Source of the DNA: Rhynchopus sp. YZ270_cl-10
Lineage: Eukaryota
Length of the DNA stretch: 64,000 nucleotides
Direction of reading: 5' to 3'
NCBI GenBank assembly: GCA_964035575.1
Contig: OZ037838.1
Coordinates: forward strand, 496,001 to 560,000
This document shows positions 786 through 56,560 of this stretch, piece after piece (within the stretch, counting starts at the first letter, position 1; every line of letters begins with the position of its first letter). The translations under genes were made by a program, and so were the position numbers. Under the pieces are notes generated by a model. The model was not told the DNA's origin. It worked only from the letters and a program-made list of their open reading frames with translations, and did not search any database.

Positions 786-1967
786 TCACTCACTGTTGTG
801 TGGGTGCAGATGCTGTGTCACAATGACGCCGTCTGATTGCGTAACCACAACAACACGTGAACACGGCGATATCGTAAATGCCCCCCCATTCTCGGTTTGC
901 GACAGAACACGCACACAGGACATGGTCGCCACATCATACTGGTGCACGTATGACTTGTAATACTCGTAATCGGGGTAAATGCTGCTGCAATCGGTGTCCT
1001 CATCATCCGTATACCATATAAATTCCCCAACCTCTACCCCCACCACAAGGTACTTCCCACACGGGGTGAACTGCATGCCCCAGACCCCACCCACATCAAC
1101 ACCGCGAAGAGCCGCACCACTCCAATCATAGAGGTGCACGGTGCTATAGTCCACCACAGCAAAGACAGAGGCAGACCGTGAAAGCGCCACTTCACACGAC
1201 CTACCCGCAGGCACACATGCCACAGCTTCACCTGTGTTCACATCCCACAGACGTGCGCTGTCCTCACTGGAGGTGGTCACCCACCCACCACAGTCCGACA
1301 GTGCCAGGTCCTTGCACTCTTCATGCGAGAGAGAGCGGAGCAACGTCAGGTCTTCGTCATACACAGAGACGCCGTCTTTGCCCTTCGAGACAACAACACA
1401 GCCACACGCAAACACTGAGTGCAAGTCAACAACACCGCCACGTCCGTATGAAACCGAGGGGCCGTCGACTTTGCGGACCACCTCCCCACCCGGAAGCGCA
1501 ACCTCGAGAAGGCAATCCTTGCATGCCAGGTAGCAGCGTGTCTTGCACTGCGAGATGGCAGGTGGACCGAACACTTCATTGTCCACTTTGAACGAGAAGA
1601 CAGTTTCAAAGGTTTCTGTGTCGAAACCGCCAACGTGCCCACTCTTGTTACTGTGGATGCAGAGCGTTCCACAACGTGACAGCGTCAACGACATCGCTTG
1701 CGGCTCTGTAGTGTACTCAGTAGGACACTTGATGTCGGCCAAGCGAGGACAGGCAAGCACAACCTGCACCCCTGCATCAAACGCAGTGTCCTGCAGACGG
1801 CACGTCCCCTCCAGCACCTGCGTGCCGATGCGCATCTCGACAGACGCAGGCGAGACAGCAAGCGCCCTGCACGCAACCTCCTTTGCCGCTGCAACGTCCC
1901 CCTCGCACGGCACCTCCACTGTCGCAGTCATGCCTGACTCTTCCAGCACAAAGGTCACGTCCATCAT
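786..1967 (-). CDS. UBL-beta-propeller family, copy 1 (intact)
   Basis: ORF 786..2027; conserved ATG start MMDVTFVLEE at 1967; ubiquitin-fold pattern followed by 7 repeats (LSRCG, ISQCK, FACG, SDCGGW, LSRSAS, FTPCGKY, ISPCSR). Confidence 0.85.
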   Translation of the reverse strand: MMDVTFVLEESGMTATVEVPCEGDVAAAKEVACRALAVSPASVEMRIGTQVLEGTCRLQDTAFDAGVQVVLACPRLADIKCPTEYTTEPQAMSLTLSRCGTLCIHSNKSGHVGGFDTETFETVFSFKVDNEVFGPPAISQCKTRCYLACKDCLLEVALPGGEVVRKVDGPSVSYGRGGVVDLHSVFACGCVVVSKGKDGVSVYDEDLTLLRSLSHEECKDLALSDCGGWVTTSSEDSARLWDVNTGEAVACVPAGRSCEVALSRSASVFAVVDYSTVHLYDWSGAALRGVDVGGVWGMQFTPCGKYLVVGVEVGEFIWYTDDEDTDCSSIYPDYEYYKSYVHQYDVATMSCVRVLSQTENGGAFTISPCSRVVVVTQSDGVIVTQHLHPHNSE

Positions 1968-2842
1968 ATTGTTAAGGGGTCTGTTGTGTTTGATGTGATG
2001 GTTGGTGGTGTCACTTCGCAACGACAAATAAGAAGGTTGGTGGGTTAAATACGTGTTTCAACAAAAAAGTCTGATAAAGAAAGCAATTCGAAGATACCCT
2101 GCGGCAAACACACAGATGTGACAAATAAAACTGATGGCTTGCCCGTACTGTGCTGTGAACGGGGAAGGTACACAACCGCTCATCAGCAGGTTTGTGTTTC
2201 CGCTTAAAACAAGTGTTTCTCTGCGCGTGTGATTTTATGGGGGAGAAGGCAATATGTTGTATGCTTCCTTCCTTCAAAACGTCACACATAACGCTTTTGG
2301 TTTTTGGGAGACACACAAGGTGCCAGGTTCTATGGTAGGAACGGAACCACCCTGCACCTGTTTGTATTGTTTCCGGTGCAATACATGGGGAAACGTTTCG
2401 CAGTCGAAACTAGGGAAAGAACCCTAGGACAGCTTCTTTTGATAAAAGTTAGCAAACATAAAACCAGCGCGTGGAAAAAAGAGAGTGCTATTTTCCTCCT
2501 GTATGTGCAGTGTACGTTTTGGGTACGGTGCGGAGAATACAATAGTTCGATAAAAGAAAACGCGAGCATATTTATGATTTGTGTTATCTCATTCAAAATA
2601 AGCTTGTTGTTCCCACCCCACTCGGTGCTCTCATACATACAAAACAACGAGTCAACAAGAAATAATATAAATATTGGGGGAAAATACAATAACGAAGTCT
2701 TTGTGTGCGATGTTTGAAAAGCTGTAAGCTTGAGCTAGATTGACGGTGTGGCCTATGCAGTTGATGGTATGCCCTCTGCAGACACTTGCACTGTCCCCTT
2801 CTGTCAGAATACAGTCACCACCCTCCCACCCCTCGCGGAACA

Positions 2843-4027
2843 TCACTCACTGTTGTGTGGGTACAGATGCCTTGTTACAATTGACCTACCGTATGTGTCC
2901 GCACTCTCAAGCTAGAAAACAACCACGCGTGAACATGGTGATATCGCAAATGGCGCTACGTATTGCACTGCAGAGGTTTGCTTGATCACATGCACACAGG
3001 ACATGGTCGCCACATCATACTGGTGCAGGTGTCCATTGTAATAGGAAGCAAGACCAAATTCGTCAGTACCCCATAGGTCCAAAACACGTTGCTGCACCAC
3101 AAGGTACTTCCCACACGGGGTGAACTGTATGCTCTCCACGTCCCCATCCACATCAACACTGCGAAGAGCCGCACCACTCCAATCATAGAGGTGCACGTTG
3201 CCAGAGCAACCCACAGCAAAGACTGAGGCAGACCGTGAAAGCGCCACACACCGCCGCCCCAGCTCGATCGGCACACACGCCACAGCAACACCAGTGTTCA
3301 CATCCCACAGACGTGCGTTGTTCTCTTTGTAGGAGGAGGTTATCACCCACCCACCACAGTCCGACACTGCTATACCCCAGCACCCTTCGTGCGAGAGAGA
3401 GCGGAGCAACGTCAGGTCTTCGTCATACACAGAGACGCTTGCTTGTTCGCCACGGGAGACAACAACACCGACACACACAAACACTGAGTACGAGGCGCCG
3501 TCGACTTTGCGGAGCACCTCCCCACCCGGAAGCGCAACCTCGTGCATACCGTCCCTGCACGTCAGGTAGCAGCGTGTCTTGCACCGTGAGATGGCAAGCG
3601 GACCATACACATCAAAGTCTACTTTGAAACTGAAGGCAGGGCTGAAGGTTTCTGTATCGAGGCCGGTGATGTAGCCTGCATTCTGTGCTAAGAGGAAGAG
3701 TGCTCCACAAGGAGACAGCGAAAAGTATATTAAATTCTTCTCGGGCCCACCAGTTGACGGCTCTACAGTATATTTATACTCAGCAGGACACTTGATGTCA
3801 GCAAAGCGGCAGGCAAGCACAACCTGCACCCCTGCATCAAACGCAGTGTCCTGCAGACGGCACGTCCCCTCCAGCACCTGCGTGCCGATGCGCATCTCGA
3901 CAGACGCAGGCGAGACAGCAAGCGCCGTGCACGCAACCTCCTTTGCCGCTGCAACGTCCGCCTCGCACGGCACCTCCACTGTCGCAGTCACACCTGACTC
4001 TTCCAGCACAAAGGTCACATCCATCAT
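2843..4027 (-). pseudogene. UBL-beta-propeller copy 2 (in-frame TAG near the C-terminus)
   Basis: ORF stops at 2912-2914, but the same frame continues LESADTYGRSIVTRHLYPHNSE to the family stop at 2843-2845. Confidence 0.75.
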
Positions 4028-4215: not shown

Positions 4216-5340
4216 TCACTCACTGTTGTGTGGGTACAGATGCCTTGTCACAATGTCGGTATCTCCTTCCAATACCACAACAACACGCGAACACGGCGAT
4301 ATCGCAAATACACCTGAACATTGCGGTATCACATGCACACAGGACATGGTCGCCACATCATACTGGTGCAGAGGTGTATTGTAATCGTCATCAGAATCCG
4401 TACCCTCTACCCTTACCACATCAAAGGTCCTCACCACAAGGTACTTCCCACACGGGGTGAAGTGCATGTCCTCGACATCCCCATCCATACCAACACTGCG
4501 AAGAGCCGCACCACTCCAGTCATAGAGCTGCACGTTGCCAGAGCACCCCACAGCAAAGACAGAGGCAGACCGTGAAAGCGCCACTCCACGCCACCCCTCC
4601 TCCAGCGGCACACATGCAACAGCTTCACCTGTGTTCACATCCCACAGACGTACGTTCCTCTCCTTGTTGGAGGAGGTGACCACCCACCCACCACAGTCCG
4701 ACACTCCCGCGTCCCAGCACCCTTCGTGCGAGAGAGAGCGGAGCAACGTCAGGTCTTCGTCATACACAGAGACGCCGTCTTTGCCCTTCGAGACAACAGC
4801 AACGCCACACGTCCGTATTGAAACCGACGAGCAGTCAATTTTGCGGAGCACCTCCCCACCCGGAAGCGCAACCTCGAGAAGGCCTTCCTTGTTGCACGGC
4901 AGGTAGCAGCGTGTCTTGCACTGCGAGATGGCAGGACGAGCGTACACTTTCAATGCGTCCAGTTTGAACGAGAAGACAGTGTCGAAGGTTTCTGTGTCGA
5001 AGCCGCCAACATGCCCAGTCCTGCTACAATAGACGCAGAGCGTTCCACAACGCGACAGTGACAAGTTGTCCACATGAATTGCAGTGTACTCAGCAGGACA
5101 CTTGATGTCGGCCAAGCGAGGACAGGCAAGCACAACCTGCACCCCTGCCTCAAACGCAGTGTCCTGCAGACGGCACGTCCCCTCCAGCACCTGCGTGCCG
5201 ATGCGCATCTCGACAGACGCAGGCGAGACAGCAAGCGCCGTGCACGCAACCTCCTTTGCCGCTGCAACGTCCGCCTCGCACGGCACCTCCACTGTCGCAG
5301 TCACGCCTGACTCTTCCAGCACAAAGGTCACATCCATCAT
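4216..5340 (-). CDS. UBL-beta-propeller copy 3 (intact)
   Basis: Full-length family ORF from MMDVTF to HLYPHNSE. Confidence 0.85.
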   Translation of the reverse strand: MMDVTFVLEESGVTATVEVPCEADVAAAKEVACTALAVSPASVEMRIGTQVLEGTCRLQDTAFEAGVQVVLACPRLADIKCPAEYTAIHVDNLSLSRCGTLCVYCSRTGHVGGFDTETFDTVFSFKLDALKVYARPAISQCKTRCYLPCNKEGLLEVALPGGEVLRKIDCSSVSIRTCGVAVVSKGKDGVSVYDEDLTLLRSLSHEGCWDAGVSDCGGWVVTSSNKERNVRLWDVNTGEAVACVPLEEGWRGVALSRSASVFAVGCSGNVQLYDWSGAALRSVGMDGDVEDMHFTPCGKYLVVRTFDVVRVEGTDSDDDYNTPLHQYDVATMSCVHVIPQCSGVFAISPCSRVVVVLEGDTDIVTRHLYPHNSE

Positions 5341-6946: not shown

Positions 6947-6990
6947 AAAAAATATATTGCAACGCCTTCTGTCTGCCTGCGGGAGGCACT

Positions 6991-9513: not shown

Positions 9514-10695
9514 TCACTCCCCTTCCCCCCCGCTTCCCTCCTCTCCACTGACGCAGTGCTCACCAGAGTATGGGTACAGATGCTGTGTCACAATGACGCC
9601 GTCTGATTGCATAACCATGACAACACGTGAACACGGCGATATCGCAAATTCCCCATTCTCGGTTTGCGACAGAACACGCACACAGGACATGGTCGCCACA
9701 TCGTACTGGTGCAGGTATGACCTGAAATCGGGGTAAATGCTGCTGCCATCAGTATCATCGGTATCCTCATCATCCATAAATTCCGCAACCTCTACCCCCA
9801 CCACAAGGTACTTCCCACACGGGGTGAACTGCATGCCCCCGACACCCCCACCCACATCAACACTGCGAAGAGCCGCACCACTCCAATCAAAGAGGCGTAC
9901 ACTGCTATCGCTCCCCACAGCAAAGACAGAGGCAGACCGCGAAAGCGCCACTACACACCACCTACCCGCAGGCACACATGCCACAGCTTCACCTGTGTTC
10001 ACATCCCACAGACGTGCGCTGTCCTCACTGGAGGTGGTCACCCACCCACCACAGTCCGACACTGCCAGGTCCCTGCACTCTTCGTGCGAGATAGAGCGGA
10101 GCAACGTCAGGTCTTTGTCATACACAGAGACTGCGTCTGTGCCCTTCGAGACAACAACACCACCACACGTCCGTACTGAAACCGAGGGGCCGTCGACTTT
10201 GCGGAGCACCTCCCCACCCGGAAGCGCAACCTCGAGAAGGCAATCCTTGCATGCCAGGTAGCAGCGTGTCTTGCACTGCGAGATGGCAGGTGGACCGAAC
10301 ACTTCATTGGCCACTTTGAACGAGAAGACAGTGTCGAAGGTTTCTGTGTCGAAGCCACCAACATGCCCACTCTCGTTACTGTGGACGCAGAGCGTTCCAC
10401 AACGTGACAACATCAACATCGTCGCTTGCGGCTCTGCAGTGTACTGAGCAGGACACTTGATGTCGGCCAAGCGAGGACAGGCAAGCACAACCTGCACCCC
10501 TGCATCAAACGCAGTGTCCTGCAGACGGCACGTCCCCTCCAGCACCTGCGTGCCGATGCGCATCTCGACAGACGCAGGCGAGACAGCAAGCGCCGTGCAC
10601 GCAACCTCCTTTGCCGCTGCAACGTCCGCCTCGCACGGCACCTCCACTGTCGCAGTCACGCCTGACTCTTCCAGCACAAAGGTCACATCCATCAT
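9514..10695 (-). CDS. UBL-beta-propeller copy 5 (intact, short Gly/Glu tail)
   Basis: Full-length family ORF ending SGEEGSGGEGE. Confidence 0.85.
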   Translation of the reverse strand: MMDVTFVLEESGVTATVEVPCEADVAAAKEVACTALAVSPASVEMRIGTQVLEGTCRLQDTAFDAGVQVVLACPRLADIKCPAQYTAEPQATMLMLSRCGTLCVHSNESGHVGGFDTETFDTVFSFKVANEVFGPPAISQCKTRCYLACKDCLLEVALPGGEVLRKVDGPSVSVRTCGGVVVSKGTDAVSVYDKDLTLLRSISHEECRDLAVSDCGGWVTTSSEDSARLWDVNTGEAVACVPAGRWCVVALSRSASVFAVGSDSSVRLFDWSGAALRSVDVGGGVGGMQFTPCGKYLVVGVEVAEFMDDEDTDDTDGSSIYPDFRSYLHQYDVATMSCVRVLSQTENGEFAISPCSRVVMVMQSDGVIVTQHLYPYSGEHCVSGEEGSGGEGE

Positions 10696-36617: not shown

Positions 36618-37955
36618 TCACTGACAAACGCAACCCCCGCCACAACGCACTGCCTCACGGTCACCCCCTCCTCCTCCTCCACCTTCTTCTTCCACTTCGC
36701 ATTCGGTGCGCGCTTCGTCGCTGGTATTTTCGGTGGCATGCTTGCCTGCAGAGAGCGGGCTGTCACTCACGTCCCCCTCACCCTCACCTAGCCCGACCAA
36801 GGCGCAGACGTACGAGACCTCTGATCCTACTACAGCAACACTCCTCTCGTCCCCCGCGACAACAAGACGCTGCACCACATCTGCCCCAAGACAACTACGT
36901 TGTACTATGCTTCCATCCATCGACCACCTTTCCACTGTCCCTTTGAGTGCACCTTGCAAGATAACATAGTTCAGACAACACGAGAAGAACGCAGACGGAG
37001 CAGACACCTTCAATTCCGCGAGCAGACGTGGTGTGTCACCAGAGGTTCGGTACACAGCGATGGATGCGGGACCACAAAAGAGGATGCGACTGCCACATGG
37101 CGAAAAGGTGCAGAAGGTACGGCTTTGGAACGGATACAGATCTAGCACTTTACCGTTGGAAAGGGAGATAAGCGCGCGGGCGTTGCTTCCACCAGGTTCG
37201 TGTCCGCACGCATACCGCCCGCACGGCGACACAGCTAGACCCCTCCCCGAAATTGCAAATCGATTCTCCACAACCTTCTTCGTCAAATCAAACACCACGA
37301 CACCAGATACACATCCCCCCACAACCCTGGTCCCCACCGCACTCAGTGCAAGAACCTCGCTTGGTAGAGTAAACGCCACCTCCGCGGCCTCTGCAGATCC
37401 CGCATCCTCAGGAAAACGGAGCAGCCGAACCTCAGGAGAGTAGTGTTCCGAGAACGCTAGGTGTGAGGCGCTGAGCGCAACACACTGTACACGGTGCACT
37501 GCCGCGGTCGTGGTGGAGTGTCCTGTCGCAAGGTTGTGGCACAGCAAGGTAGGAGGGGCGACACCCTCTGTTTCCAACGGTGCTGCACCTGTTGCGATGA
37601 GATGGGTCCCGCAGGGTGATATGGTGACATCCGGCTGCGAGAATTGGTGGCCCTTAAAGAGAGCAGTGGTATGCTTCCAGGCAGGCATAGCGGTCATGGT
37701 GACAGCGAGGTGAGGGTCGGCAGAAATCAGGTCCTTGAAAGGTGTGCTCGGATCCAGCAACATCAGGTCCGTCTCCGTCTCAGCCAAGACCATCGCCGTG
37801 ACAGCGCCGTAGGGGGCCAGGGTTCCCTCCTCACCGCGTCTGAACAACACCTTTCGTTGCATGCTGAGCACCGTCTCGTCGTCTGCAATGGTCACCTTGC
37901 AGCGGTGTACCCCCTCTTTGGATGGGACCGTGCATTCAACCTGTAGTACGTCCAT
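36618..37955 (-). CDS. Divergent UBL-like plus beta-propeller protein with a C-terminal CaaX-like motif (CVCQ)
   Basis: Within ORF 36618..38234; probable start MDVLQVEC at 37955; KVTIADDETVLSMQRKV fits a ubiquitin-fold pattern; ISPCG, VSPCG and FSPCG blade turns. Confidence 0.65.
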   Translation of the reverse strand: MDVLQVECTVPSKEGVHRCKVTIADDETVLSMQRKVLFRRGEEGTLAPYGAVTAMVLAETETDLMLLDPSTPFKDLISADPHLAVTMTAMPAWKHTTALFKGHQFSQPDVTISPCGTHLIATGAAPLETEGVAPPTLLCHNLATGHSTTTAAVHRVQCVALSASHLAFSEHYSPEVRLLRFPEDAGSAEAAEVAFTLPSEVLALSAVGTRVVGGCVSGVVVFDLTKKVVENRFAISGRGLAVSPCGRYACGHEPGGSNARALISLSNGKVLDLYPFQSRTFCTFSPCGSRILFCGPASIAVYRTSGDTPRLLAELKVSAPSAFFSCCLNYVILQGALKGTVERWSMDGSIVQRSCLGADVVQRLVVAGDERSVAVVGSEVSYVCALVGLGEGEGDVSDSPLSAGKHATENTSDEARTECEVEEEGGGGGGGDREAVRCGGGCVCQ

Positions 37956-38237
37956 GTGAGGATAAAGCCCAAAGACGGACGGTTTGTCTGGTGGTAAATG
38001 GAGGAGAGGGGTGAGGGGAGGAGGAAGGGGGTGAGGATGGCAAAAAGGAGCAATTCCTTTCGCTGCAAAGTAAGGTAATGGGTAGGGGAGGGGAGGTTCC
38101 ATGACTAACGATTGGGGAAGGAACTTTGGTGCTAAAAATACATTTTTTACTTTTGCGTATTTGACTCGCTGGGGTGTTTTTGCAATCACCAAAATCTCAA
38201 AATCGGGCAATGTACCCCGAAAAAACCAGGTCACACA

Positions 38238-39239
38238 TCACTCACTGTTGTGTGGATACAGATGCCTTGTCACAATGACGCCATCTGATTGCACTACCAT
38301 AACAACACGTGAACACGGTGATATCGCGAACGATGCACTCGTGCTATCCGATATCACATGCACACAGGACATGGTTGCCACATCATACTGGTGCAGCACA
38401 TGTGTAGTCCTCACCACAAGGTACTTCCCACACGGGGTGAACTGCATGTCCTCGACAAGCCCACCCACAGCAACACTGCGAAGAGCCGCACCACTCCAAT
38501 TAAAGAGCTGCACGATGCCATTCAGCCCCTCTACAGCAGAGCCCACCACAGCAAAGACAGAGGCAGACCGTGAAAGCGCCACTGCACAGAACCCACTCGC
38601 AGGCACACATACCACAGCTTCACCTGTGCTCACATCCCACAGACGTACGTTACAACGTCAGGTCTTCGTCATACACAGAGACGCCGTCTTTGCCCTGTGA
38701 GACAACAACACAGCCATACGCAAACACTGAGTACGAGGTGCCGTCGACTTTGCGGACCACCTCCCCACCCGGAAGCGCAACCTCGAGAAGACCTTTCCAA
38801 CACGCCAGGTAGCAGCGTGTCTTGCACTTCGAGATGGCAGGCGACCGTACACTTCATTGTCCACTTTGAACGAGAAGACAGTGTCAAAGGTTTCTGTGTC
38901 GAAGCCGCCAACGTGCCCATTCCTGCTACAATAGACGCAGCGTGTTCCACAACGCGACAGCGACAAGTTTACCGCGCGAGTTGCAGTGTACTCAGCAGGA
39001 CACTTGATGTCAGCAAAGCGGCAGGCAAGCACAACCTGAACCCCTGCATCAAACGCAGTGTCCTGCAGACGGCACGTCCCCTCCAGCACCTGCGTGCCGA
39101 TGCGCATCTCGACAGACGCAGGCGAGACAGCAAGCGCCGTGCACGCAACCTCCTTTGCCGCTGCAACGTCCGCCTCGCACGGCACCTCCACTGTCGCAGT
39201 CACGCCTGACTCTTCCAGCACAAAGGTCACATCCATCAT
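38238..39239 (-). pseudogene. UBL-beta-propeller copy 11 (frameshift near 38843, deletion in blade 4 near 38651)
   Basis: Split ORFs 38658..39239 and 38238..38633; the SDCGGW segment is missing. Confidence 0.8.
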
Positions 39240-39558: not shown

Positions 39559-40671
39559 TCACCACTCTTCCTCCCCTCTCCTGGTCACATCACTCACTGT
39601 TGTGTGGTACAGATGCCTTGTCACAATGACGCCATTTAATTTCGTAGCCACAAAAACACGTGAACACGGCGATATCGCAAATGACGTAGCATAGTCTCGC
39701 AGGACCACACGCACACAGGACATGGTTGCCACATCATACTCGTCCAGCATGTGTGTTCCCTTTACCACAAGGTACTTCCCACACGGGGTGAACTGCATGC
39801 ACTCGACATCCCCACGCACATCAACACTGCGAAGAGCCGCACCACTCCAATCAAAGAGGTGCACGGTCTTTTCCTCCACCACAGCAAAGACAGAGGCAGA
39901 CCGTGAAAGCGCCACGAGACCCTGCCACCCGTCCGCAGGCACACATGCCACAGCTTCACCTGTGTTCACATCCCACAGACGTGTGTTGTTTTCCCTGTTG
40001 GAGGAGGTGATCACCCACCCACCACAGTCCGACACTGCCACGTCCCTGCACACTTCGTGCGAGAGAGAGCGGAGCAACGTCAGGTCTTCGTCATACACAG
40101 AGACGCCGTCTTTGCCCTTCGAGACAACAACACTGCCACACGCAAACACTGATTCCGAGTAGCCGTCGACTTTGCGGACCACCTCCCCACCCGGAAGCGC
40201 AACCTCGAGAAGGCAATCCTTGTGGCACGGCAGGTAGCAGCGTGTCTTGCACTGCGAGACGGCAGGCGGACCTAGCACAATATGGGGTAGGTTGAACTCA
40301 AAGACACGGGAAAAGGTTTCTGTGTCCAAGCCAACAACCTTCCGATCACAAAAATAGATGCAGAGCGTTCCACAACGCGACAGCGACATCACTACGTTCA
40401 ACGACGACTCCTTCAAATTGTACTCAGCAGGACACTTGATGTTGGCAAAGCGGCGGGCAAGCACAACCTGCACCCCTGCATCAAACGCAGTGTCCTGCAG
40501 ACGGCACGTCCCCTCCAGCACCTGCGTGCCGATGCGCATCTCGACAGACGCAGGCGAGACAGCAAGCGCCGTGCACGCAACCTCCTTTGCCGCTGCAACG
40601 TCCGCCTCGCACGGCACCTCCACTGTCGCAGTCACGCCTGACTCTTCCAGCACAAAGGTCACATCCATCAT
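39559..40671 (-). CDS. UBL-beta-propeller copy 12 (1-nt loss in the last codons alters the C-terminus)
   Basis: tgtgtggtac instead of tgtgtgggtac near 39606; otherwise full length. Confidence 0.7.
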   Translation of the reverse strand: MMDVTFVLEESGVTATVEVPCEADVAAAKEVACTALAVSPASVEMRIGTQVLEGTCRLQDTAFDAGVQVVLARRFANIKCPAEYNLKESSLNVVMSLSRCGTLCIYFCDRKVVGLDTETFSRVFEFNLPHIVLGPPAVSQCKTRCYLPCHKDCLLEVALPGGEVVRKVDGYSESVFACGSVVVSKGKDGVSVYDEDLTLLRSLSHEVCRDVAVSDCGGWVITSSNRENNTRLWDVNTGEAVACVPADGWQGLVALSRSASVFAVVEEKTVHLFDWSGAALRSVDVRGDVECMQFTPCGKYLVVKGTHMLDEYDVATMSCVRVVLRDYATSFAISPCSRVFVATKLNGVIVTRHLYHTTVSDVTRRGEEEW

Positions 40672-41768: not shown

Positions 41769-42891
41769 TCACTCACTGTTGTGTGGGTACAGATATTTTG
41801 TTGCAATGACGCGATCTGATTGAATAGCCATAACAACACGCGAACACGGCGATATCGCAAAGGACCCACCTGTTCCGTGCGGTAACACATGCACACAGGA
41901 CATGGTCGCCACATCATACTGGTGCAGGAAAGTCGTCCCAAAGCATCGTGTGTCCACGAACCTAACTACGGCGTACTTCCCACATGGAGTGAACTGCACG
42001 CCACAGACGCTCAGCTGCTCGTCTTCAAAGCGTCCAAGAACCGCACCACTCCAGTCATAGAGGTACGCTTTGTCATAGTACTCCACAGCAAAGACAGAGG
42101 CAGACCGCGAAAGCGCAACACACCACCCATTTGCAGCGGCACACATGCCACAGCTTCACCTGTGTTCACATCCCACAGACGTGCGTTCTCCTCCTTGTCG
42201 GAAAAGGTGATCACCCACCCACCACAGTCCGACACTGCCATGCTCCTGCACCCTTCATGTGAGAGAGAGAGCGGAGCAACGTCAGGTCTTCGTCATACAC
42301 AGAGACGTTGCCTTCGCCCTGCGAGACAACAACACCACCACACGCAAACGGCGTTCTCAAGGAGCCGTCGACTTTGTGGACCACCTCCCCACCCGGAAGC
42401 GCAACCTCCGCAAGACAATTCCGATCCGCCATGTAGCAGCGTGTCTTGCACCGCGAGATGGCAGGCGCATCACACACCTCAATGTTTGATTTGAACCTGA
42501 AGGCAGGGCTGAAGGTTTCTGTATTGAGGCCGGTGACACAGTCATCCTCCTGTGCAAAGAGGCAGAGTGCTCCACAAGGAGACAGCGACAAATGCCTAAT
42601 TTCCCTCTCCGGCTTTCCAATTGGCACCTCTGCACTGTACTCAGCAGGACACTTGATGTCGGCAAAGCGGGGGCGGGCAAGCACAACCTGCACCCCTGAA
42701 TCAAACGCAGTGTCCTGCAGACGGCACGTCCCCTCCAGCACCTGCGTGCCGATGCGCATCTCGACAGACGCAGGCGAGACAGCAAGCGCCGTGCACGCAA
42801 CCTCCTTTGCCGCTGCAACGTCCGCCTCGCACGGCACCTCCACTGTCGCAGTCACGCCTGACTCTTCCAGCACAAAGGTCACATCCATCAT
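41769..42891 (-). pseudogene. UBL-beta-propeller copy 13 (two frameshifts)
   Basis: Three overlapping ORF pieces: 42211..42951, 42011..42241 and 41769..42146. Confidence 0.8.
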
Positions 42892-43543: not shown

Positions 43544-44668
43544 TCACTCACTGTTGTGTGGGTACAGATGCCTTGTCGCAATGATGCCATTTGCTTGCAT
43601 GACCACAACAACACGCGAACACGGCGATATCGCAAAGGACCCTCCGACACGGGTTTGCGGTATCACACGCACACAGGACATGGTCGCCACATCATACTGG
43701 TGCAGGTGTACATCGTAATCAGGCCAATCTTCGTCATCATCATTATACTCCGCTACACCTACCCCCACCACAAGGTACTTCCCACACGGGGTGAACTGCA
43801 TGCTCTCGGCATCCCCACCCACATCAACACTGCGAAGAGCCGCACCACTCCAATCATAGAGGTGCACGTCGCCAGAGCACCCCACAGCAAAGACAGAAGC
43901 AGACCGTGAAAGCGCCACTGCTTCGTCCCGCCACCCCGCAGGCACACATGCCACAGCTTCACCTGTGTTCACATCCCACAGACGTGCGTTCATCTCACTC
44001 AGGGAGGAAGTGATCACCCACCCACCACAGTCCGACACTGCCACACGCACAAACCCTTCATGCGAGAGAGAGCGGAGCAACGTCAGGTCTTCGTCATACA
44101 TAGAGACTCCGTCATTGCCCTTCGAGACAACAACACCGCCACACGCAAACACTGAGTACGAGATGCCGTCGACTTTGCGGAGCACCTCCCCACCTGGAAG
44201 CGCAACCTCGAGAAGGTGATCCTCACACGCCAGGTAGCAGCGTGTCTTGCACTGCGAGATGGCAGGTGTAGCGTCTGCTTCGGCTGCGTCCACTTTGAAC
44301 GAGAAGACAGTGTCGAAGGTTTCTGTGTCGAAGCCGCCAACATGACCACTACTGTGACTATAGACGCAGAGCGTTCCACAACGCGACAGTGACCAGCATC
44401 CCACATGCGTTGCAGTGTACTCAGCAGGACACTTGATATCGGCAAAGCGGCGGGCAAGCACAACCTGCACCCCTGCATCAAACGCAGTGTCCTGCAGACG
44501 GCACGTCCCCTCCAGCACCTGCGTGCCGATGCGCATCTCGACAGACGCAGGCGAGACAGCAAGCGCCGTGCACGCAACCTCCTTTGCCGCTGCAACATCC
44601 GCCTCGCACGGCACCTCCACTGTCGCAGTCACGCCTGACTCTTCCAGCACAAAGGTCACATCCATCAT
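43544..44668 (-). CDS. UBL-beta-propeller copy 14 (intact)
   Basis: Full-length family ORF. Confidence 0.85.
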   Translation of the reverse strand: MMDVTFVLEESGVTATVEVPCEADVAAAKEVACTALAVSPASVEMRIGTQVLEGTCRLQDTAFDAGVQVVLARRFADIKCPAEYTATHVGCWSLSRCGTLCVYSHSSGHVGGFDTETFDTVFSFKVDAAEADATPAISQCKTRCYLACEDHLLEVALPGGEVLRKVDGISYSVFACGGVVVSKGNDGVSMYDEDLTLLRSLSHEGFVRVAVSDCGGWVITSSLSEMNARLWDVNTGEAVACVPAGWRDEAVALSRSASVFAVGCSGDVHLYDWSGAALRSVDVGGDAESMQFTPCGKYLVVGVGVAEYNDDDEDWPDYDVHLHQYDVATMSCVRVIPQTRVGGSFAISPCSRVVVVMQANGIIATRHLYPHNSE

Positions 44669-46140: not shown

Positions 46141-46394
46141 CGAGGGGGTGTGATAAAGTGAACTGTGAAGAAGGTCAAGGTGGAGGGGGGGTGAGCAGAG
46201 GATGATGAAGAAGAGTGGTGACGCAGTAGATTACCAGCTTAAAAGGGGGCTGTGGGAGCTTTTGAGGGCAGGCTGTGCGCTAATTTTCCTATCTCCCGTT
46301 TTGTGGATACCGTTACTGGCATTTGTTGTTCTTTTTTTGCTGTGACCTTGGGTCAACTTAATCACCACCCTCCCTCCCCTCCCCTGGTCACACA

Positions 46395-47525: not shown

Positions 47526-48169
47526 ATTGTTAAGGGGTCTGTTGTGTTTGATGTGATGTTTTGTGGGGTCACTTCACAACGACAAATAAGAAGGTTGGTG
47601 GGTTAAATACGTGTTTCAACAAAGAAGTCTGACAAAGCAAGCAATTTGAAGATACCCTGAGGCAAACACACAGTCATTGTCGTTTGCCAAAGATCGTGGT
47701 ATGTAATGATTATTTCCTGGGGTCGTCGTCGAATTGATTTACGTTTTTTTTTGCCAGGATTGTGGCCAAAGTATACATGATGAGATGATCGTGTTGTTGT
47801 TTGGCTAAGTGGTGGAGAAGGAACAGGATGAGGATGTCAGGCAGTGCAGCTACCTCAGATGCTGTGCGTTTGGCAAGTTACAGCGTCTGTGCAGAACGTC
47901 CAGCTCAGGACAAAATGCTCGACAGACTCGTTCCTCTTTGCTTGTTGCTCAAAAGACTATAAACGGGGGGGGAAAAAGTAAAAGTTGTTTGTTGTTCGCT
48001 TCCACACCTTTTTTTCTTCTTCGACTTGATTTACGATATGGTTGTGTTTGCCTGAAGTACAAAAAGTGTCGTGGAGCACAGGGGGGAAAAGAGGGGGAAA
48101 CAAGCGGGATACGCAGACGCGCGACTTTTCACGAGGGTCTCGAGCATTTTGTCAAATACTACGTGTTTA

Positions 48170-49532: not shown

Positions 49533-49855
49533 TTACTAAAAAGAAAAGAAAAGTTTATAAGATGATCCTAAGCCTCTCGTGCTTAGTCACCTTAAGAAAA
49601 GAAAGTGCAAAAAGAAGTGACTTGAGATACAATGCCTTGCCCTGGCAGTGTACCTTTTGGTGCGTGACCAGAACACCGTGGGTGGACCCGCGGCTGATCC
49701 CCCTAGACATAGATGGCGTGCGAAGAGTTTTCTTTGCATTCTTCTTCGCATTCGGGGGGAAAGCTAAAAGGGGTTTCTTGGGGGTGTTTTGAGGGTCTTG
49801 GGTTGTTTTGGGGTAGTATTCATAACCACCCTCCCTCCCCTCCCCTGGTCACACG

Positions 49856-50983
49856 TCACTCACTGTTGTGTGGGTACAGATGCGTGGACACAATAACGCC
49901 ATTTGTTTGCATGACCACAAGAATACGTGAACACGGAGATATCGCAAAAGACCCGCCATAGCTTTGCGGTATCACATGCACACGGGACATGGTCGCCACA
50001 TCATACTGGTGCAGGTGTACATCGTAATCAGGCCATTCGTCATCATCATTAAACTCCGCAACCTCCACCCTCACCACAAGGTACTTCCCACACGGGGTGA
50101 ACTGCATGTCCTTGACATCCCCACGCACATCAACACTGCGAAGAGCCGCACCACTCCAATCAAAGAGGTGCACGTTACCAGAGCCCTCCACAGCAAAGAC
50201 AGAGGCAGACCGTGAAAGCGCCACCCCTCCACACCACCCCTCCTCCAGCGGCACACATGCCACATCTTCACCTGTGTTCACATCCCACAGACGGGCGTTG
50301 TTCTCATTGCTGGAGGAGGTGATCACCCACCCACCACAGTCCGACACTGCCACACGCCCGCACTCTTCGTGCGAGAGAGAGCGGAGCAACGTCAGGTCTT
50401 CGTCATACACAGAGACGCCGTCTTTGCCCTCAGAGACAACAACACCGCCACACGCGGACACAGACTCTGAGATACCGTTGACTTTGCGGAGCACCTCCCC
50501 ACCCGGAAGCGCAACCTCGCATATGCTCTCCTTGCACGTCAGGTAGCAGCGTTTCTTGCAAGCTGAGATGGCAGGTGCACCGTACGCACATACGCCCATG
50601 TCGTCGACAAAGAAGGTGCTCTCAAAGGTTTCTGTATCCAAACCATACATGCTCCTATTACATTCGTCATACAAGACACAAAGCGTCCCACAACGCGAGA
50701 GTGACCAGCAGATCAACATCCCCTCTACACTGTGCATAGCAGGACACTTGATGTCAGCAAAGCGGCGGGCAAGCACAACCTGCACCCCTGCATCAAACGC
50801 AGTGTCCTGCAGACGGCACGTCCCCTCCAGCACCTGCGTGCCGATGCGCATCTCGACAGACGCAGGCGAGACAGCAAGCGCCGTGCACGCAACCTCCTTT
50901 GCCGCTGCAACGTCCGCCTCGCACGGCACCTCCACTGTCGCAGTCACGCCTGACTCTTCCAGCACAAAGGTCACATCCATCAT
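49856..50983 (-). CDS. UBL-beta-propeller copy 16 (intact)
   Basis: Family start MMDVTF at 50983 within ORF 49856..51349. Confidence 0.85.
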   Translation of the reverse strand: MMDVTFVLEESGVTATVEVPCEADVAAAKEVACTALAVSPASVEMRIGTQVLEGTCRLQDTAFDAGVQVVLARRFADIKCPAMHSVEGMLICWSLSRCGTLCVLYDECNRSMYGLDTETFESTFFVDDMGVCAYGAPAISACKKRCYLTCKESICEVALPGGEVLRKVNGISESVSACGGVVVSEGKDGVSVYDEDLTLLRSLSHEECGRVAVSDCGGWVITSSSNENNARLWDVNTGEDVACVPLEEGWCGGVALSRSASVFAVEGSGNVHLFDWSGAALRSVDVRGDVKDMQFTPCGKYLVVRVEVAEFNDDDEWPDYDVHLHQYDVATMSRVHVIPQSYGGSFAISPCSRILVVMQTNGVIVSTHLYPHNSE

Positions 50984-51388
50984 TGTTTCAAGAGCTGTGT
51001 TGGTGTGATACAATGGAATGTTCTGTTGGGTGGACAGTTGAAGGAGCTGAGGGTGGACACGTGGAAAGAAGGGACGAGGGCTGGGGGTCGTTGTTTTGGG
51101 TTGGGGTAGAAGTTCTGGGGTACAGGACAAAAATGAACAGCAGTGAGCACATGAATAGGTCTCACCATGGCGCACATCTCTGTGTGGAGGGCGACGAGGG
51201 CGGCCTGGCGGGAGGCGATGTGGTGTTCGGCTGCGACAAGGTGGTCTGCGGTGTCTTGCTCGTGGATGCACATCTGCCATCACTGGATAGGTGTGTGGTG
51301 GCAAGACGCAGGCTTCTGTTGACGGCCTCCACGGAATACAAGGGAGCAAGTCACCACACCCATTTCACATGGTGCCAAAGCATGAACA

Positions 51389-52509
51389 TCACTCGTTGTG
51401 GGGGTGCAGATGTCTTGTCGCAACGTTGGTGCAATCGAAAGACACATATGATAGAAACACAACCACACGTGAACACGGTGATATCACAAATGACTGATCG
51501 GTGACGTCTGGGATCACAAGTACACAAGACATGGTCGCCACATCATACTGGTGCAGCTCTTGAGGTTCTCCATCGTCAGTAAACTTATGTACGTAGACCA
51601 CAAGGTACTTCCCACACGGGGTGAACTGCACGCTAACGACACTTCCAGAGACAGTGGCGTTCTGAAGAGCCGCACCACTCCAGTCGTAGAGCTGCACTCG
51701 CTCTGCCTCATCCACACAGCCCCCCACAGCAAAGACAGAGGCAGACCATGAAATTGAAACCGCTACAGCGCACGTGGACATAGGCACACATGCCACAGCT
51801 TCACCTGTGTTCACATCCCACAGACGTGCGTTCTTTTCCTTGACGGAGGAGGTGATCACCCACCCACCACAGTCCGACACTGCCATGTGTCTACACACCC
51901 TGTGCAAGAGAGTGCGGAGCAACGTCAGGTCTTCGTCATACACAGAGACGCCGTCTTCGCCTTGGGAGACAACAGCGTTGCCACACGCGGATACTAACTT
52001 CGAGGGGCCGTCGACTTTGCGAAGCACCTCCCCACCCGGAAGCGCAAGCTCGAGAAGGCGATCCACACACGGTAGGTAGCAACGTGTCTTGCACCGTGCG
52101 ATGGCAGGTGGACCGCAATGAAACAGTCACTCTCAACAGTAAAAACGAAGGCAGTTTCGAAGGTTTCTGTATCGAAGCCGCCAACACATGTACTTCTACT
52201 ATAAAGGCAGAGCGTACCACAACGCGACAGCGACAAATTCATCACTCCCCCATCCACACTGTACTCAGCAGGACACTTGATGTCGGCAAAGCGGCGGGCA
52301 AGCACAACCTGCACCCCTGCATCAATCGCAGTGTCCTGCAGACGGCACGTCCCCTCCAGCACCTGCGTGCCGATGCGCATCTCGACAGACGCAGGCGAGA
52401 CAGCAAGCGCCGTGCACGCAACCTCCTTTGCCGCTGCAACGTCCGCCTCGCACGGCACCTCCACTGTCGCAGTCACGCCTGACTCTTCCAGCACAAAGGT
52501 CACATCCAT
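51389..52509 (-). pseudogene. UBL-beta-propeller copy 17 (frameshift near 52110)
   Basis: Split ORFs 51994..52668 and 51389..52066. Confidence 0.75.
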
Positions 52510-53345
52510 TGTTTTGCGTTGCTTCGTGAGAAGGTGCAAATCAGCACGTTTGCTCCACCACCAACGGAGGGAGTGACGAGGTGGGTGGGGGAGAGGTGTT
52601 GTTCTGTGTTGCATGTTTGTGGTGGTTCTCGTTGTGAGAGGTGACGAATGGAAAATGATACTCAACATCGCGATCTGTCACCCACACGAGAGCACCGCAT
52701 GGGCAGCGTGATGGGACTGGAGGGATGTCTCTCTGTGGGCGGAGACAGGTATCAAAAGGGAGGTAGGGAGTGCGGGTGTGGTGTGCAAGAGACAACAAAC
52801 AGGTCGGGGAGAGGTCTTGTTTTGTTTTTTTTCAAAGCTTGGTTGTATTAGTGTGGATGTGATCCACTATGTTTTCTTTGAACGAGGTCACCATCCTTTG
52901 GTTCTTGCCCTGCTGAGGCAGCATCAGTTTTGTATTTTCACGACTTTTAGTTTCTCTATCCTCTGCGATATGAAGCGCAAACACTCTTTCAATTTGCATC
53001 GCAGACCGGTAACTGACTCACGAAGTGTGTCAAAAACACCTTCCTCTGCGAGGCGGGATACCACAGCGACAACATCTATCACTGATGTGTCTGTGAGTGC
53101 TCAATGGCGTCATAGCTTTTATCATGACCACAGGCGTCCAATCCTGCTCATTTCTCTCAACATCATAAAAATCTCAAACCACACAAATGAATGGGGTGAA
53201 CGACATCTTCTTCGTTCTCAAACACGAAAACCTTGAAAGTGATGTGCAAACCTACAAAGGATAGAAAATGAATGCATCGCAATAAAATGTCTTTGCGTTT
53301 CACACAGGGACACCTCACTCAGGGGTGACCCCGAGACACAGGAAA

Positions 53346-53556
53346 AAGAGAAAGATTTATAAGATGACCCTTAGCCTCTCTGTGCTTAGTCACCTTGAGC
53401 ACATTCGTTATCGCGCAGCATCAGCTGCGTGGGTTTCCACAAGTTTGCTGTCAGGGTTGATGTCATTTCCCTAGCGGGAGTTCGTAATGTTGACTCGTAC
53501 GATGTAGTGTTCGAGCATGTGCATGGTGTAGCGCGGGTACGTGAATTGGGCGACGG
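53346..53556 (-). mobile_element. ~210-bp 3'-end copy of retroposon family B (duplicated together with 41433-41640)
   Basis: Same boundaries and flanks as the 41.4-kb copy. Confidence 0.75.
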
Positions 53557-53683
53557 AAAAAAGCTTGAAAACACAAGTCATTCGCAGTGTAGTCCTCATC
53601 CCAGCCAGTGGCAGCAAAAAATCCAAATAACGGTGTTTTTGGGTACTTTCAGTTTGCACCACCCTCCCACCCCTCGCGAAACA

Positions 53684-54785
53684 TCACTCACTGTTGTGTG
53701 GGTACAGATGCCTTGTTGCAATGCCGTTTGTTGTTGCACCCTCGAACACAACCACACGCGAACACGGTGATATCGCAAAGGACCCACTATAGAGTTGCGA
53801 TATCACACGCACACAGGTCGTTGTCACCACATCATACTGGTGTAGTTGCACATCAGATTCCGCAACCTCCACCCTTACCACAAGGTACTTCCCACACGCG
53901 GTAAACTGCATGTCCTTGACATCCCCATCCACATCAACACTGCGAAGAGCCGCACCACTCCAATCATAGAGCTGCACGTTACCAGAGCCCTCCACAGCAA
54001 AGACAGAGGCAGACCGTGAAAGCGCCAGTTTACACCACCTCACCGCAGGCACACATGCCACAGCTTCACCTGTGTTCACATCCCACAGACGTACGTTCTG
54101 CTCCCTGCTGGAGGAGGTGATCACCCACCCACCACAGTCCGACACTGCCACATTCCAGCACCCTTCGTGCGAGAGAGAGCGGAGCAACGTCAGGTCTTCG
54201 TCATACACAGAGACGACGTTGTGGCCCTTCGAGACAACAACACCACCACACGTCCGTATTGAAACGGAGGGGCAGTCGACTTTGCGGAGCACCTCCCCAC
54301 CCGGAAGCGCAACCTCAAGACGGCAATCCCCACACGCCAGGTAGCAGCGTGTCTTGCACCGTGAGATGGCAGGCCGACCGTACACTTCATTGTCCACTTT
54401 GAACGAGAAGACAGTTTCAAAGGTTTCTGTGTCGAAGCCACCAACATGCCTGCCCCTGCTACAATAGACGCAGAGCGTTCCACAACGCGACAGCGACAAG
54501 TTTTCCACATCTGTTGCATTGTACTGAGCAGGACACTTGATATCTGCCAAGCGAGGACAGGCAAGCACAACCTTGCACCCCTGCATCAAACGCAGTGTCC
54601 TGCAGACGGCACGTCCCCTCCAGCACCTGCGTGCCGATGCGCATCTCGACAGACGCAGGCGAGACAGCAAGCGCCGTGCACGCAACCTCCTTTGCCGCCG
54701 CAACGTCCGCAACGTCCGCCTCGCACGGCACCTCCACTGTCGCAGTCACGCCTGACTCTTCCAGCACAAAGGTCACATCCATCAT
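53684..54785 (-). pseudogene. UBL-beta-propeller copy 18 (1-nt insertion near 54573; 9-bp duplication ADVADV)
   Basis: cacaaccttgcaccc versus family cacaacctgcaccc; ORFs 54459..54845 and 53684..54712. Confidence 0.75.
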
Positions 54786-55441
54786 ATTGTTAAGGGTTCT
54801 GTTGTGTTTGATGTGATGGTTGGTGGTGTCACTTCGCAACGACAAATAAGAAGGTTGGTGGGTTAAATACGTGTTTCAACAAAAACGTCTGATAAAGAAA
54901 GCAACTAGAAGATACCCTGAGGCAAACATACAGTCGTTGTCGTTTGCCAAAGATTGTGGTGTGGAATGCTTCTTTCCTGGGGTTGTCGTCGAATTGATTT
55001 ACGTTTTTTTGCCAGGATTGTGGCCAAAGTATACATGATGAGATGATCGTGTTGTTGTTTGGCTAAGTGGTGGAGAAGGAACAGGATGAGGATGTCAGGC
55101 AGTGCAGCTACCTCAGATGCTGTGCGTTTGGCAAGTTGCAGCGTCTGTGCAGAACGTCCAGCTCAGGCGAAAAGAAGAGAACGTGCAAAAAGAAGTGACT
55201 CGAGACACAAGGCCTTGCCCTGGCAGTGTACCTTTTGGTGCGTGACCAGAACACCGTGGGTGGACCCGCGGCTGATCCCCCTAGACAGATGGCGTGTGAA
55301 GAGTTTTCTTTGCATTCTTCTTCGCATTCGGGGGGAAAGCTAAAAGGGGTTTCTTGGGGGTGTTTTGAGGGTCTTGGGTTGTTTTGCTGGGTCCCTGGGG
55401 TATATTCATCACCACCCTCCCTCCCCTCCCCTGGTCACACA

Positions 55442-56560
55442 TCACTCACTGTCGTGTGGGTACAGATGTCTTGTCGCAATGACGCCATTTGTTTGCATGA
55501 CCACAAGAATACGTGAACACGGTGATATCGCAAATGACCCTCCAGAGAGTAGCGGGATCACATGCACACGGGACATGGTCGCCACATCATACTGGTGCAG
55601 GTGTACATCGTAAACAGTCCAATCTTCGTCATCATAATTACACTTTTCTACCCCCACCACAAAGTACTTCCCACACGGGGTGAACTGCATGTCCTTGACA
55701 TCCCCACCCACATCAACACTGCGAAGAGCCGCACCACTCCAATCAAAGAGCTGCACGCTCTTTCCCATATGTCCCCCCACAGCAAAGACAGAGGCAGACC
55801 GTGAAAGCGCCACGAGACACTGCCACCCGTCCGCAGGCACACATGCCACAACTTCACCTGTGTTCACATCCCACAGACGTGCGTTCTTGTCCTTCCTGGA
55901 GGAGGTGATCACCCACCCACCACAGTCCGACACTGCCATGCCCCTGCATGCTTCATGAGAGAGAGAGCGGAGCAACGTCAGGTCTTCGTCGTACACAGAG
56001 ACGCCGTCTTCGCCCTTCGAGACAACAACACCACCACACGTTCGTACTGAAACCGAGGGGCAGTCGACTTTGCGGAGCACCTCCCCACCCGGAAGCGCAA
56101 CTTCGAGAAGGCAATCCCCACACGGCAGGTAGCAGCGTGTCTTGCACCGTGAGATGGCAGGCGGACCGAATACATTGTCCACTTTGAACGAAAAGACAGT
56201 GTCAAAGGTTTCTGTGTCGAAGCCGCCAACATACCCAGTACAGTCACCATATACGCAGAGCGTTCCACAACACGACAGCGACAAGTAGTCTGCTTGCTGC
56301 CGCCAACTGTACTCAGCAGGACACTTGATGTCAGCAAAGCGGCGGGCAAGCACAACCTGCACCCCTGCACCAAACGCAGTGTCCTGCAGACGGCACGTCC
56401 CCTCCAGCACCTGCGTGCCGATGCGCATCTCGACAGACGCAGGCGAGACAGCAAGCGCCGTGCACGCAACCTCCTTTGCCGCTGCAACGTCCGCCTCGCA
56501 CGGCACCTCCACTGTCGCAGTCACGCCTGACTCTTCCAGCACAAAGGTTACATCCATCAT
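55442..56560 (-). CDS. UBL-beta-propeller copy 19 (intact)
   Basis: Family start at 56560 within ORF 55442..56698. Confidence 0.85.
   Translation of the reverse strand: MMDVTFVLEESGVTATVEVPCEADVAAAKEVACTALAVSPASVEMRIGTQVLEGTCRLQDTAFGAGVQVVLARRFADIKCPAEYSWRQQADYLSLSCCGTLCVYGDCTGYVGGFDTETFDTVFSFKVDNVFGPPAISRCKTRCYLPCGDCLLEVALPGGEVLRKVDCPSVSVRTCGGVVVSKGEDGVSVYDEDLTLLRSLSHEACRGMAVSDCGGWVITSSRKDKNARLWDVNTGEVVACVPADGWQCLVALSRSASVFAVGGHMGKSVQLFDWSGAALRSVDVGGDVKDMQFTPCGKYFVVGVEKCNYDDEDWTVYDVHLHQYDVATMSRVHVIPLLSGGSFAISPCSRILVVMQTNGVIATRHLYPHDSE

What the first reader, a model, noticed from the sequence alone, without database searches (positions are those of the whole stretch)
786..56560. 19-copy UBL-beta-propeller array: constant ubiquitin-like end, hypervariable binding domain
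Seen: 19 same-strand paralogues in two clusters. The ~215-bp UBL segment is almost identical even at synonymous sites, while every propeller differs substantially. Established: UBL domains without a di-Gly end (Rad23/Dsk2, parkin, Elongin B types) act as docking modules for the proteasome or E3 ligases, and beta-propellers are common substrate receptors. Inference: this is a diversified repertoire of cytosolic adaptors (no signal peptide or membrane segment is visible) that couples many different targets, possibly viral or endosymbiont proteins, to one invariant effector. The logic resembles the expanded F-box and BTB families of plants and nematodes, but I do not recognise this architecture as a described system.
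Basis: partly seen in the sequence, partly recalled or inferred. Interest (0 to 1): 0.92.

Follow-up and report, generated by a model that had tools for sequence, protein, structure and literature searches.

The report
Antibody-like propeller repertoire in a diplonemid
A marine single-celled flagellate, likely a diplonemid, carries well over a hundred tandem gene copies whose predicted protein joins a near-constant ubiquitin-like domain to a seven-bladed propeller that varies almost only on one face, like antibody loops, and it likely uses them to recognise foreign proteins inside the cell.

Summary
The array is real and much larger than reported. All 19 copies are confirmed (11 intact, 1 nearly intact, 7 broken). 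They are a slice of a family of at least 120 close paralogues, 111 of them on the two contigs this window spans. The host is likely a diplonemid. Predicted folds: a ubiquitin-type beta-grasp without di-Gly and a 7-blade WD40 propeller. One correction matters: the propeller is not generally variable. Variation sits in 14 loops on the top face (mean entropy 2.48 bits, against 0.29 in bottom loops). These loops keep frame through indels, carry sites with omega above 1 (robust to rate variation; 0 of 23 recombination nulls reached the observed value) and are shuffled between copies. UBL identity at silent sites is best explained by gene conversion far from selected sites, so it does not prove an invariant effector. 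The UBL lacks the Leu8/Ile44/Val70 patch, which weakens a Rad23-type shuttle. UBL+WD40 as an architecture is known (Rsa4/NLE1, Ytm1/WDR12), but these genes are not NLE members. Closest analogues: fungal HNWD receptors and F-box repertoires. Targets, partner and expression are untested.

The parts
786..1967 (-). c01, intact UBL-WD40 (393 aa)
   Evidence: identical to P0062
2843..4027 (-). c02, in-frame stop in blade 7 (codon 371 of 394)
4216..5340 (-). c03, intact
   Evidence: P0014
6991..9195 (-). c04, intact, runs on into a ~370-aa C-terminal extension shared with c10 (no Pfam hit)
9514..10695 (-). c05, intact
   Evidence: P0023
11922..13138 (-). c06, frameshift near 12052 (blade 7)
14431..15564 (-). 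c07, intact
   Evidence: P0048
15885..16986 (-). c08, 5'-truncated (begins just after the stop of ORF 16989-18350) and frameshifted near 16760
18790..19917 (-). c09, intact
   Evidence: P0021
20586..22526 (-). c10, intact, with the C-terminal extension (~260 aa)
36618..38102 (-). divergent WD40 paralogue next to cluster 2, with a UBL-sized N-terminal part (fold of that part untested)
   Evidence: hhalign probability 94.5 over propeller residues; no Pfam hit
38238..39239 (-). c11, frameshift near 38841 plus deletion of about one blade
39559..40671 (-). c12, nearly intact: 1-nt deletion at 39607 alters only the C-terminal tail
41769..42891 (-). c13, frameshifts near 42258 and 42137
43544..44668 (-). 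c14, intact (374 aa), reference for numbering and folding; UBL = 44453-44668
   Evidence: P0001
46395..47525 (-). c15, intact
   Evidence: P0016
49856..50983 (-). c16, intact
   Evidence: P0009
51389..52509 (-). c17, frameshift near 52116
53684..54785 (-). c18, 9-nt duplication and 1-nt insertion (54574) in the UBL, frameshifted
55442..56560 (-). c19, intact
   Evidence: P0007

Best explanation
This is a large tandem family of genes predicted to encode a ubiquitin-like domain plus a 7-blade WD40 propeller, whose 14 top-face loops are hypervariable, positively selected and shuffled between copies; it likely acts as an intracellular repertoire of non-self receptors that would hand bound foreign proteins to one shared partner, likely of the ubiquitin system. 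Shown: copy number, face-restricted variation, frame-preserving loop indels, sites with omega above 1, mosaic genealogies. Predicted: the two folds. Inferred: short-tract gene conversion among more than 100 copies homogenises everything not under diversifying selection (bottom face, UBL) and recombines new loops. Also inferred: the mostly acidic top face binds variable, probably basic, proteins of endosymbionts, viruses or other intracellular parasites; the constant UBL plus bottom face form the handle for a ligase, segregase or proteasome cofactor; that handle is not the canonical Ile44-patch route.
For: 414 hits at E<=1e-3; the best 120 listed are 70-82% identical to c14 (excluding itself): 83 on the contig right of the N gap, 28 on the contig left of it, 9 on six other contigs. 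AF2 propeller: strand blocks mostly pLDDT 84-97, Foldseek TM ~0.7-0.78 to WD40s. UBL model pLDDT 86, TM 0.8-0.89 to ubiquitin, parkin UBL and ISG15; the family profile aligns to ubiquitin 5-71 without gaps. Loops classified from the model alone: top loops entropy 2.48 bits, pN 0.41; bottom loops 0.29 bits, pN 0.04, dN/dS 0.35. 61-119 distinct sequences per loop among 120 proteins. 45 of 53 non-modal length alleles keep frame. My M2a vs M1a test on 221 gap-free codons of 13 copies: 2dL 128.9, and 18.7 with gamma rate variation (omega2 2.8, 21% of sites; I169, V207, R208, A359 above 0.95). 0 of 23 neutral simulations with a new genealogy every 8 codons reached 18.7. Conflicting splits at 96-100% bootstrap between parts of the gene. 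Median loop charge -10. The selected positions lie in the same two loop classes as in HET-E (PMC1805685, section 10). Diplonemids host Holosporaceae/Rickettsiaceae rich in secreted proteins (PMC8061765, passages).
Against: No target, partner or expression was shown. On structure-defined top loops alone dN/dS is 1.26 with CI 0.95-1.68; the clearer 1.56 uses entropy-picked sites and is partly circular. Recombination inflates the codon test: 3 of 23 nulls passed the nominal threshold, one reached 15.1. A PHI-like test was not significant (p 0.74), and four-gamete incompatibility did not change with distance, so recurrent mutation also contributes. The UBL lacks the Leu8/Ile44/Val70 patch and has 11 acidic against 3 basic residues. 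UBL dN/dS is uninformative, and the UBL drifts faster than the bottom loops among distant paralogues (26-42% against 39-50% identity). 7 of 19 copies are broken.
Confidence: 0.58

Rival explanations
1. Variable receptors as above, but the UBL is not the effector handle. It is a folding or expression tag and a long homology anchor for conversion, and the constant partner (if any) binds the propeller's bottom face or the proteins simply sequester their targets.
For: Canonical UBL patch lost. Bottom loops better conserved than the UBL among distant paralogues. UBL silent-site identity is the far end of a gradient away from selected codons. Identity starts at the ATG although three unrelated 5' flank types exist.
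Against: In intermediate subfamilies the UBL (65-90% identity) is at least as conserved as the bottom loops (59-84%) and more than the strands (47-65%). All full-length distant paralogues aligned keep a UBL, 6 of 14 hitting PF00240.
Confidence: 0.15
2. Conspecific recognition or genetic conflict: the repertoire discriminates alleles of the organism's own polymorphic protein (het-like allorecognition, S-locus F-box-like collaborative recognition) or neutralises selfish toxin elements.
For: Same evolutionary signature and same loops as HET-D/E (PMC1805685). Tandem multi-gene detoxifying repertoires exist at plant S-loci (PMC6649718, PMC5788982, search listing only).
Against: No cell-fusion incompatibility in diplonemids is known to me (own knowledge). 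No linked polymorphic partner gene was seen in the window. More than 120 specificities exceed the 10-member HNWD family.
Confidence: 0.14
3. Neutral concerted evolution: a recently amplified, dispensable array in which conversion homogenises conserved parts while loosely constrained loops drift and escape conversion.
For: 37% of window copies are broken. Top-loop dN/dS CI includes 1. Silent sites in loops are also raised (pS 0.35).
Against: Bottom loops are equally solvent-exposed in a propeller yet have ten times lower pN. 45 of 53 length alleles keep frame. Omega above 1 persists with rate variation and exceeds all 23 recombination nulls.
Confidence: 0.08
4. A dedicated mutator (DGR-like reverse transcriptase or deaminase) targets the loops.
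For: CDR-like patches; an RT gene lies 4 kb from cluster 2.
Against: No base bias: diversity 0.48/0.48/0.41/0.48 at consensus A/C/G/T, and codon positions 1-2 exceed position 3. The RT is an RT-RNase H non-LTR element with 22 cluster members and a poly-A tail. No template repeat and no Rfam hit. Top-face loops of one clone's reads were not examined for somatic variants.
Confidence: 0.04

Closest known systems
Fungal HNWD non-self receptors HET-D/HET-E/HET-R (Podospora anserina)
   Same: WD40 propeller with positively selected residues in the d-a loop and b-c turn on the top face; concerted evolution with exchange between loci (PMC1805685, abstract and section 10).
   Different: HNWD are NACHT-containing NLRs, 10 members, and their repeats are homogenised within a gene. 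Here there is no NACHT, the N-terminus is a UBL, the seven blades of one gene differ from each other, homogenisation runs position by position across more than 100 paralogues, and whole loops vary in length.
Expanded F-box (and MATH-BTB) ubiquitin-ligase adaptors of nematodes and plants; S-locus F-box clusters
   Same: Tandem expansion; conserved N-terminal module with positively selected substrate-binding domain; proposed role against pathogens (PMC8120010, passages).
   Different: No F-box, BTB or SOCS box; the constant module is a beta-grasp; no cullin link shown; much stronger homogenisation at silent sites.
Rsa4/NLE1 and Ytm1/WDR12 ribosome assembly factors
   Same: Same domain order: uncleaved N-terminal UBL followed by WD40; the UBL is a handle for a constant machine, Rea1/midasin (PMC8122580, PMC6624252, passages).
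   Different: These are conserved, essential genes; the Pfam NLE domain is not matched by any of 14 family UBLs and no top PDB sequence match is Rsa4/Ytm1 (best 60 shown).
UBL shuttle factors Rad23/Dsk2/Ddi1 and parkin UBL
   Same: Ubiquitin-type fold without di-Gly.
   Different: No UBA domain; Leu8/Ile44/Val70 equivalents are Glu/Arg/Ala; acidic UBL.

Membership tests
Integral ubiquitin-like (beta-grasp) domain | Ubiquitin fold | tested here: met
   AF2 pLDDT 86 with a 14-row alignment; Foldseek TM 0.8-0.89 to ubiquitin and UBLs; profile hits ubiquitin 5-71. The window's own UBL alone has no ubiquitin-family Pfam hit.
Integral ubiquitin-like (beta-grasp) domain | No C-terminal di-Gly, so not conjugated or cleaved | tested here: met
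   The domain ends VVLAR/VVLAC in the commonest forms among 120 proteins.
WD40 7-bladed propeller | Seven 4-stranded blades with velcro closure, WD at the end of strand C | tested here: met
   DSSP of the AF2 model, with strand A of blade 2 assigned by me; Foldseek to G-beta and other WD40s. Pfam WD40 hits are below cut-off.
UBL shuttle factors (Rad23/Dsk2 type) | Hydrophobic patch equivalent to ubiquitin Leu8/Ile44/Val70 (role recalled; the patch is named in PMC4962041) | tested here: not met
   Glu9-10, Arg46, Ala72 by the alignment; invariant or nearly so in 120 proteins.
UBL shuttle factors (Rad23/Dsk2 type) | UBA or other ubiquitin-binding domain | tested here: not met
   None in Pfam scans.
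NLE1/Rsa4, WDR12/Ytm1 | NLE-type UBL (Pfam NLE) | tested here: not met
   0 of 14 family UBLs match NLE at E<=10.
NLE1/Rsa4, WDR12/Ytm1 | Conserved MIDAS-binding glutamate (E114/E80) | tested here: inconclusive
   Its place just before the last strand is recalled, not aligned here; that stretch has no conserved Glu and position 64 is polymorphic.
HNWD / fungal NLR | NACHT domain and N-terminal death effector | tested here: not met
   374-aa proteins with UBL and WD40 only.
HNWD / fungal NLR | Positive selection at d-a and b-c positions of the top face | tested here: met
HNWD / fungal NLR | Near-identical repeats within one gene | tested here: not met
   The self-search gives one full-length match per copy and no blade-to-blade match; no WD-length tandem repeat.
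F-box/BTB/SOCS cullin adaptors | F-box, BTB or SOCS-box domain | tested here: not met
   No such Pfam hit.
F-box/BTB/SOCS cullin adaptors | Binding to a cullin complex | not testable with these tools
   Needs pull-down.
Diversity-generating retroelement | Adenine-specific variation, template repeat, DGR-type RT | tested here: not met

The most novel reading that the evidence does not exclude
A free-living protist has evolved an antibody-like intracellular immune repertoire: hundreds of UBL-WD40 genes with a constant framework and 14 CDR-like loops, recombined by ongoing gene conversion anchored in the invariant UBL, which route endosymbiont or viral proteins to destruction through a UBL-reading partner not yet described.
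Probability: 0.35. Interest if true: 0.93.

Novelty: new variant of a known kind. Interest (0 to 1): 0.8.

Why it matters
Diplonemids are among the most abundant marine eukaryotes (PMC10161547, abstract start), and I found no described immune receptor system for them in the searches made. This family gives a concrete, testable candidate: one invariant domain to pull down and many natural variants of one binding face. It extends the variable-WD40-receptor principle of fungal NLRs to Euglenozoa with a different effector module. It is also a natural library of propeller binders with a defined constant framework.

Tried and rejected
Alternate haplotype: I first read the 457-kb contig as a second haplotype. 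Window copies c01, c03, c05 are themselves on it, so it is the contig left of the N gap. DGR or deaminase mutator: rejected. Viral origin: no relative in viral contigs; JGI metagenomes gave one weak 35-residue match, not followed. Rfam: none. GENECONV-like runs are confounded by clustering of variability and were not used. Low loop-to-loop correlation (r 0.00-0.10) also fits a star phylogeny, so mosaicism rests. AU tests favour each partition's own ML tree by construction; the conflicting splits are the evidence. Expression: no RNA holder listed; run X11 is only guessed to be RNA; neither is evidence. The polypyrimidine-AG scan had no control and is not used. Logan depths were not used as copy number. 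The first full-length fold left the UBL at low confidence until distant paralogues were added. No whole genome is held, so the copy count comes from protein clusters. ESM Atlas, the wide VIA fold search and complex prediction (UBL against propeller) were not available, so whether the UBL packs on the bottom face is open. Earlier scan findings: none. PMC4705406 is not held.
Full report
Observation. A search of the window with one copy finds 19 paralogues, all on the minus strand, ten at 786-22526 and nine at 38238-56560. The first 216 bp are 97.7-100% identical in 17 copies; c18 carries a 9-nt duplication and a 1-nt insertion, and c08 is 5'-truncated. Eleven copies are intact, c12 differs only in its tail, and seven are broken by a stop, frameshifts or deletions. 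c04 and c10 read on into a shared extension with no Pfam hit. Contigs of four public runs from two studies lie on 38000-48500 at 97% identity or more, including copy-specific pieces, so an assembly artefact is unlikely; these runs may include the source sample.

Host and family size. The neighbouring FtsX-type gene has its best named relatives in diplonemids: a transcript labelled Rhum (read by me as Rhynchopus humris) at 50%, Diplonema papillatum at 45%, one labelled Hpha (read as Hemistasia) at 40%, and one labelled EG (read as Euglena) at 32%. The host is therefore likely a diplonemid. A protein search returned 414 hits, of which the best 120 were listed; apart from the query itself they are 70-82% identical to c14. 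The median pairwise identity is 70.5%. The other 294 hits were not seen. The sensitive search adds full-length paralogues down to about 30% identity. The 10 I looked up are all single ENA sequences, and two share a contig length with a copy of this genome's LINE. No listed hit came from D. papillatum or EukProt, but the lists were cut, so the range is not settled. In low-depth runs labelled with other organisms, the UBL appears as one 213-bp contig with 1 difference (X7) while propeller pieces differ by about 5-15%; the same pattern thus exists in other samples.

Folds. AlphaFold2 gives a 7-blade propeller with velcro closure from residue 83 on, matching WD40 structures at TM about 0.7-0.78. 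The N-terminal domain folded well once 13 more distant paralogue domains were aligned (pLDDT 86) and matches ubiquitin, parkin UBL and ISG15 at TM 0.8-0.89. The family profile aligns to ubiquitin residues 5-71 without gaps. There is no di-Gly. The equivalents of Leu8, Ile44 and Val70 are Glu9/10, Arg46 and Ala72, and the domain has 11 acidic and 3 basic residues with one lysine. The ORFs begin directly with the UBL; 13 of 120 proteins exceed a hydropathy of 1.6 in some 19-residue window, which I did not locate but which the model's beta-strands would explain.

Where the variation lies. Among 120 proteins the UBL is almost flat apart from positions 24-25 and 64-65; 105 of 116 complete UBLs differ from the majority by two residues or fewer. 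The propeller alternates invariant blocks with 14 hypervariable patches. Classified from the model's strands alone, these are the seven D-A and seven B-C loops: entropy 2.48 bits and pN 0.41, against 0.29 bits and pN 0.04 for the A-B and C-D loops. The D-A and B-C loops form the top interaction platform, where HET-E carries its selected residues (PMC1805685, section 10 read). Each loop has 61-119 distinct sequences, lengths vary (loop 12 from 4 to 31 residues), and the summed loop charge has a median of -10. Of 53 non-modal length alleles among the 19 copies 45 keep frame; the other 8 include real frameshifts and misplaced anchors.

Selection. DNA analyses used 13 of 19 copies (six frameshifted or truncated ones left out). 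Pairwise dN/dS: UBL 0.95 (CI 0.27-4.5), conserved propeller sites 0.17, bottom loops 0.35, top loops 1.26 (0.95-1.68), entropy-picked sites 1.56 (1.25-1.93, partly circular). A codon site model of my own (MG94-type, M2a vs M1a, separate trees for four parts, 221 codons after dropping gapped columns and loop 12) gave 2dL 128.9, and 18.7 when all rates were allowed to vary by gamma; I169, V207, R208 and A359 passed 0.95. In 23 neutral simulations with a fresh genealogy every 8 codons none reached 18.7, the largest was 15.1 and three passed 5.99. Positive selection is thus supported, moderately.

How the diversity is made. Trees of four parts of the gene, all 19 copies, conflict at 96-100% support: c06 groups with c02/c09/c13 in blade 1 but with c17 in blades 4-7; c10 with c01/c05 in blade 1 but with c04 later; c05 with c03/c18/c19 in blades 2-3 but with c01 elsewhere. 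5' and 3' flanks also come in a few types that are reassorted among copies. Silent diversity falls from 0.24 next to a hypervariable codon to about 0.05-0.07 six to eight codons away (0.15 in a last bin of nine codons) and to 0.00-0.02 in the UBL. This is what short-tract conversion plus diversifying selection predicts, and it explains the silent-site identity of the UBL without invoking an invariant effector. Against a clean picture, a PHI-like test was not significant and four-gamete incompatibility was about 0.43 at all distances, so recurrent mutation contributes. There is no base bias, which excludes a DGR-type mutator, and the nearby RT is a multi-copy LINE.

Mechanism. I commit to an intracellular variable-receptor repertoire. 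The top face likely binds diverse foreign proteins, and the UBL with the bottom face would recruit one constant partner, likely in the ubiquitin system. The first half is well supported by sequence. The identity of targets is inferred from the arms-race signature and from diplonemids carrying Holosporaceae and Rickettsiaceae with many secreted proteins (PMC8061765, passages read); whether this organism has symbionts is unknown. The effector step is the weakest: the canonical patch is gone, and among distant paralogues the bottom loops (39-50% identity) outlast the UBL (26-42%), although in intermediate subfamilies the UBL is at least as conserved.

Known systems. It works like fungal HNWD receptors and like F-box repertoires (PMC8120010, passages read) but is a member of neither: no NACHT, no within-gene repeat identity, no F-box. 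The domain order is that of Rsa4/NLE1 and Ytm1/WDR12, whose UBL is a handle for midasin (PMC8122580 and PMC6624252, passages read), but Pfam NLE matches 0 of 14 family UBLs. Six literature searches listed no description of this family. The D. papillatum genome paper has no occurrence of WD40 or ubiquitin in its main text; its supplements, which I did not open, could list such a family, and subscription papers are not covered.

Verdict. Interest 0.80.

Noticed in passing
window 45475-46140 (-): USB1/HVSL-type phosphodiesterase gene embedded in cluster 2; a 219/221-identical copy lies on the left contig, a sign of segmental duplication within the array region.
   Followed up: partly
window 6991-8100 and 20586-21368 (-): Shared C-terminal extension fused in frame to c04 and c10, with a deletion in c10 and no Pfam hit; possibly an alternative effector domain.
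   Followed up: partly
window 16989-18350 (-): 453-aa ORF without a clear family whose stop abuts the 5'-truncated copy c08; it contains a stretch that looks UBL-like by eye, with no Pfam hit.
   Followed up: partly
window 60855-63458 (+): Non-LTR retrotransposon ORF (RT, RNase H) with a 30-A tail at 63838; 22 cluster members.
   Followed up: partly
window 24124-25022, 59329-60497, 48669-49078: MITE-like element with ~258-bp inverted ends around a perfect 40-bp tandem; a 1.17-kb near-perfect palindrome; a perfect 7-bp tandem of 58 units.
   Followed up: no
window 27539-30913 (-): Intronless FtsX-like ABC permease gene, used for lineage assignment.
   Followed up: partly
UBL positions 24-25 and 64-65 (c14 numbering): The only recurrently polymorphic UBL sites, with charge changes (D/K/N, D/G/E) in many combinations; by recalled ubiquitin geometry they may lie together at the end far from the propeller, a possible second contested surface.
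   Followed up: partly
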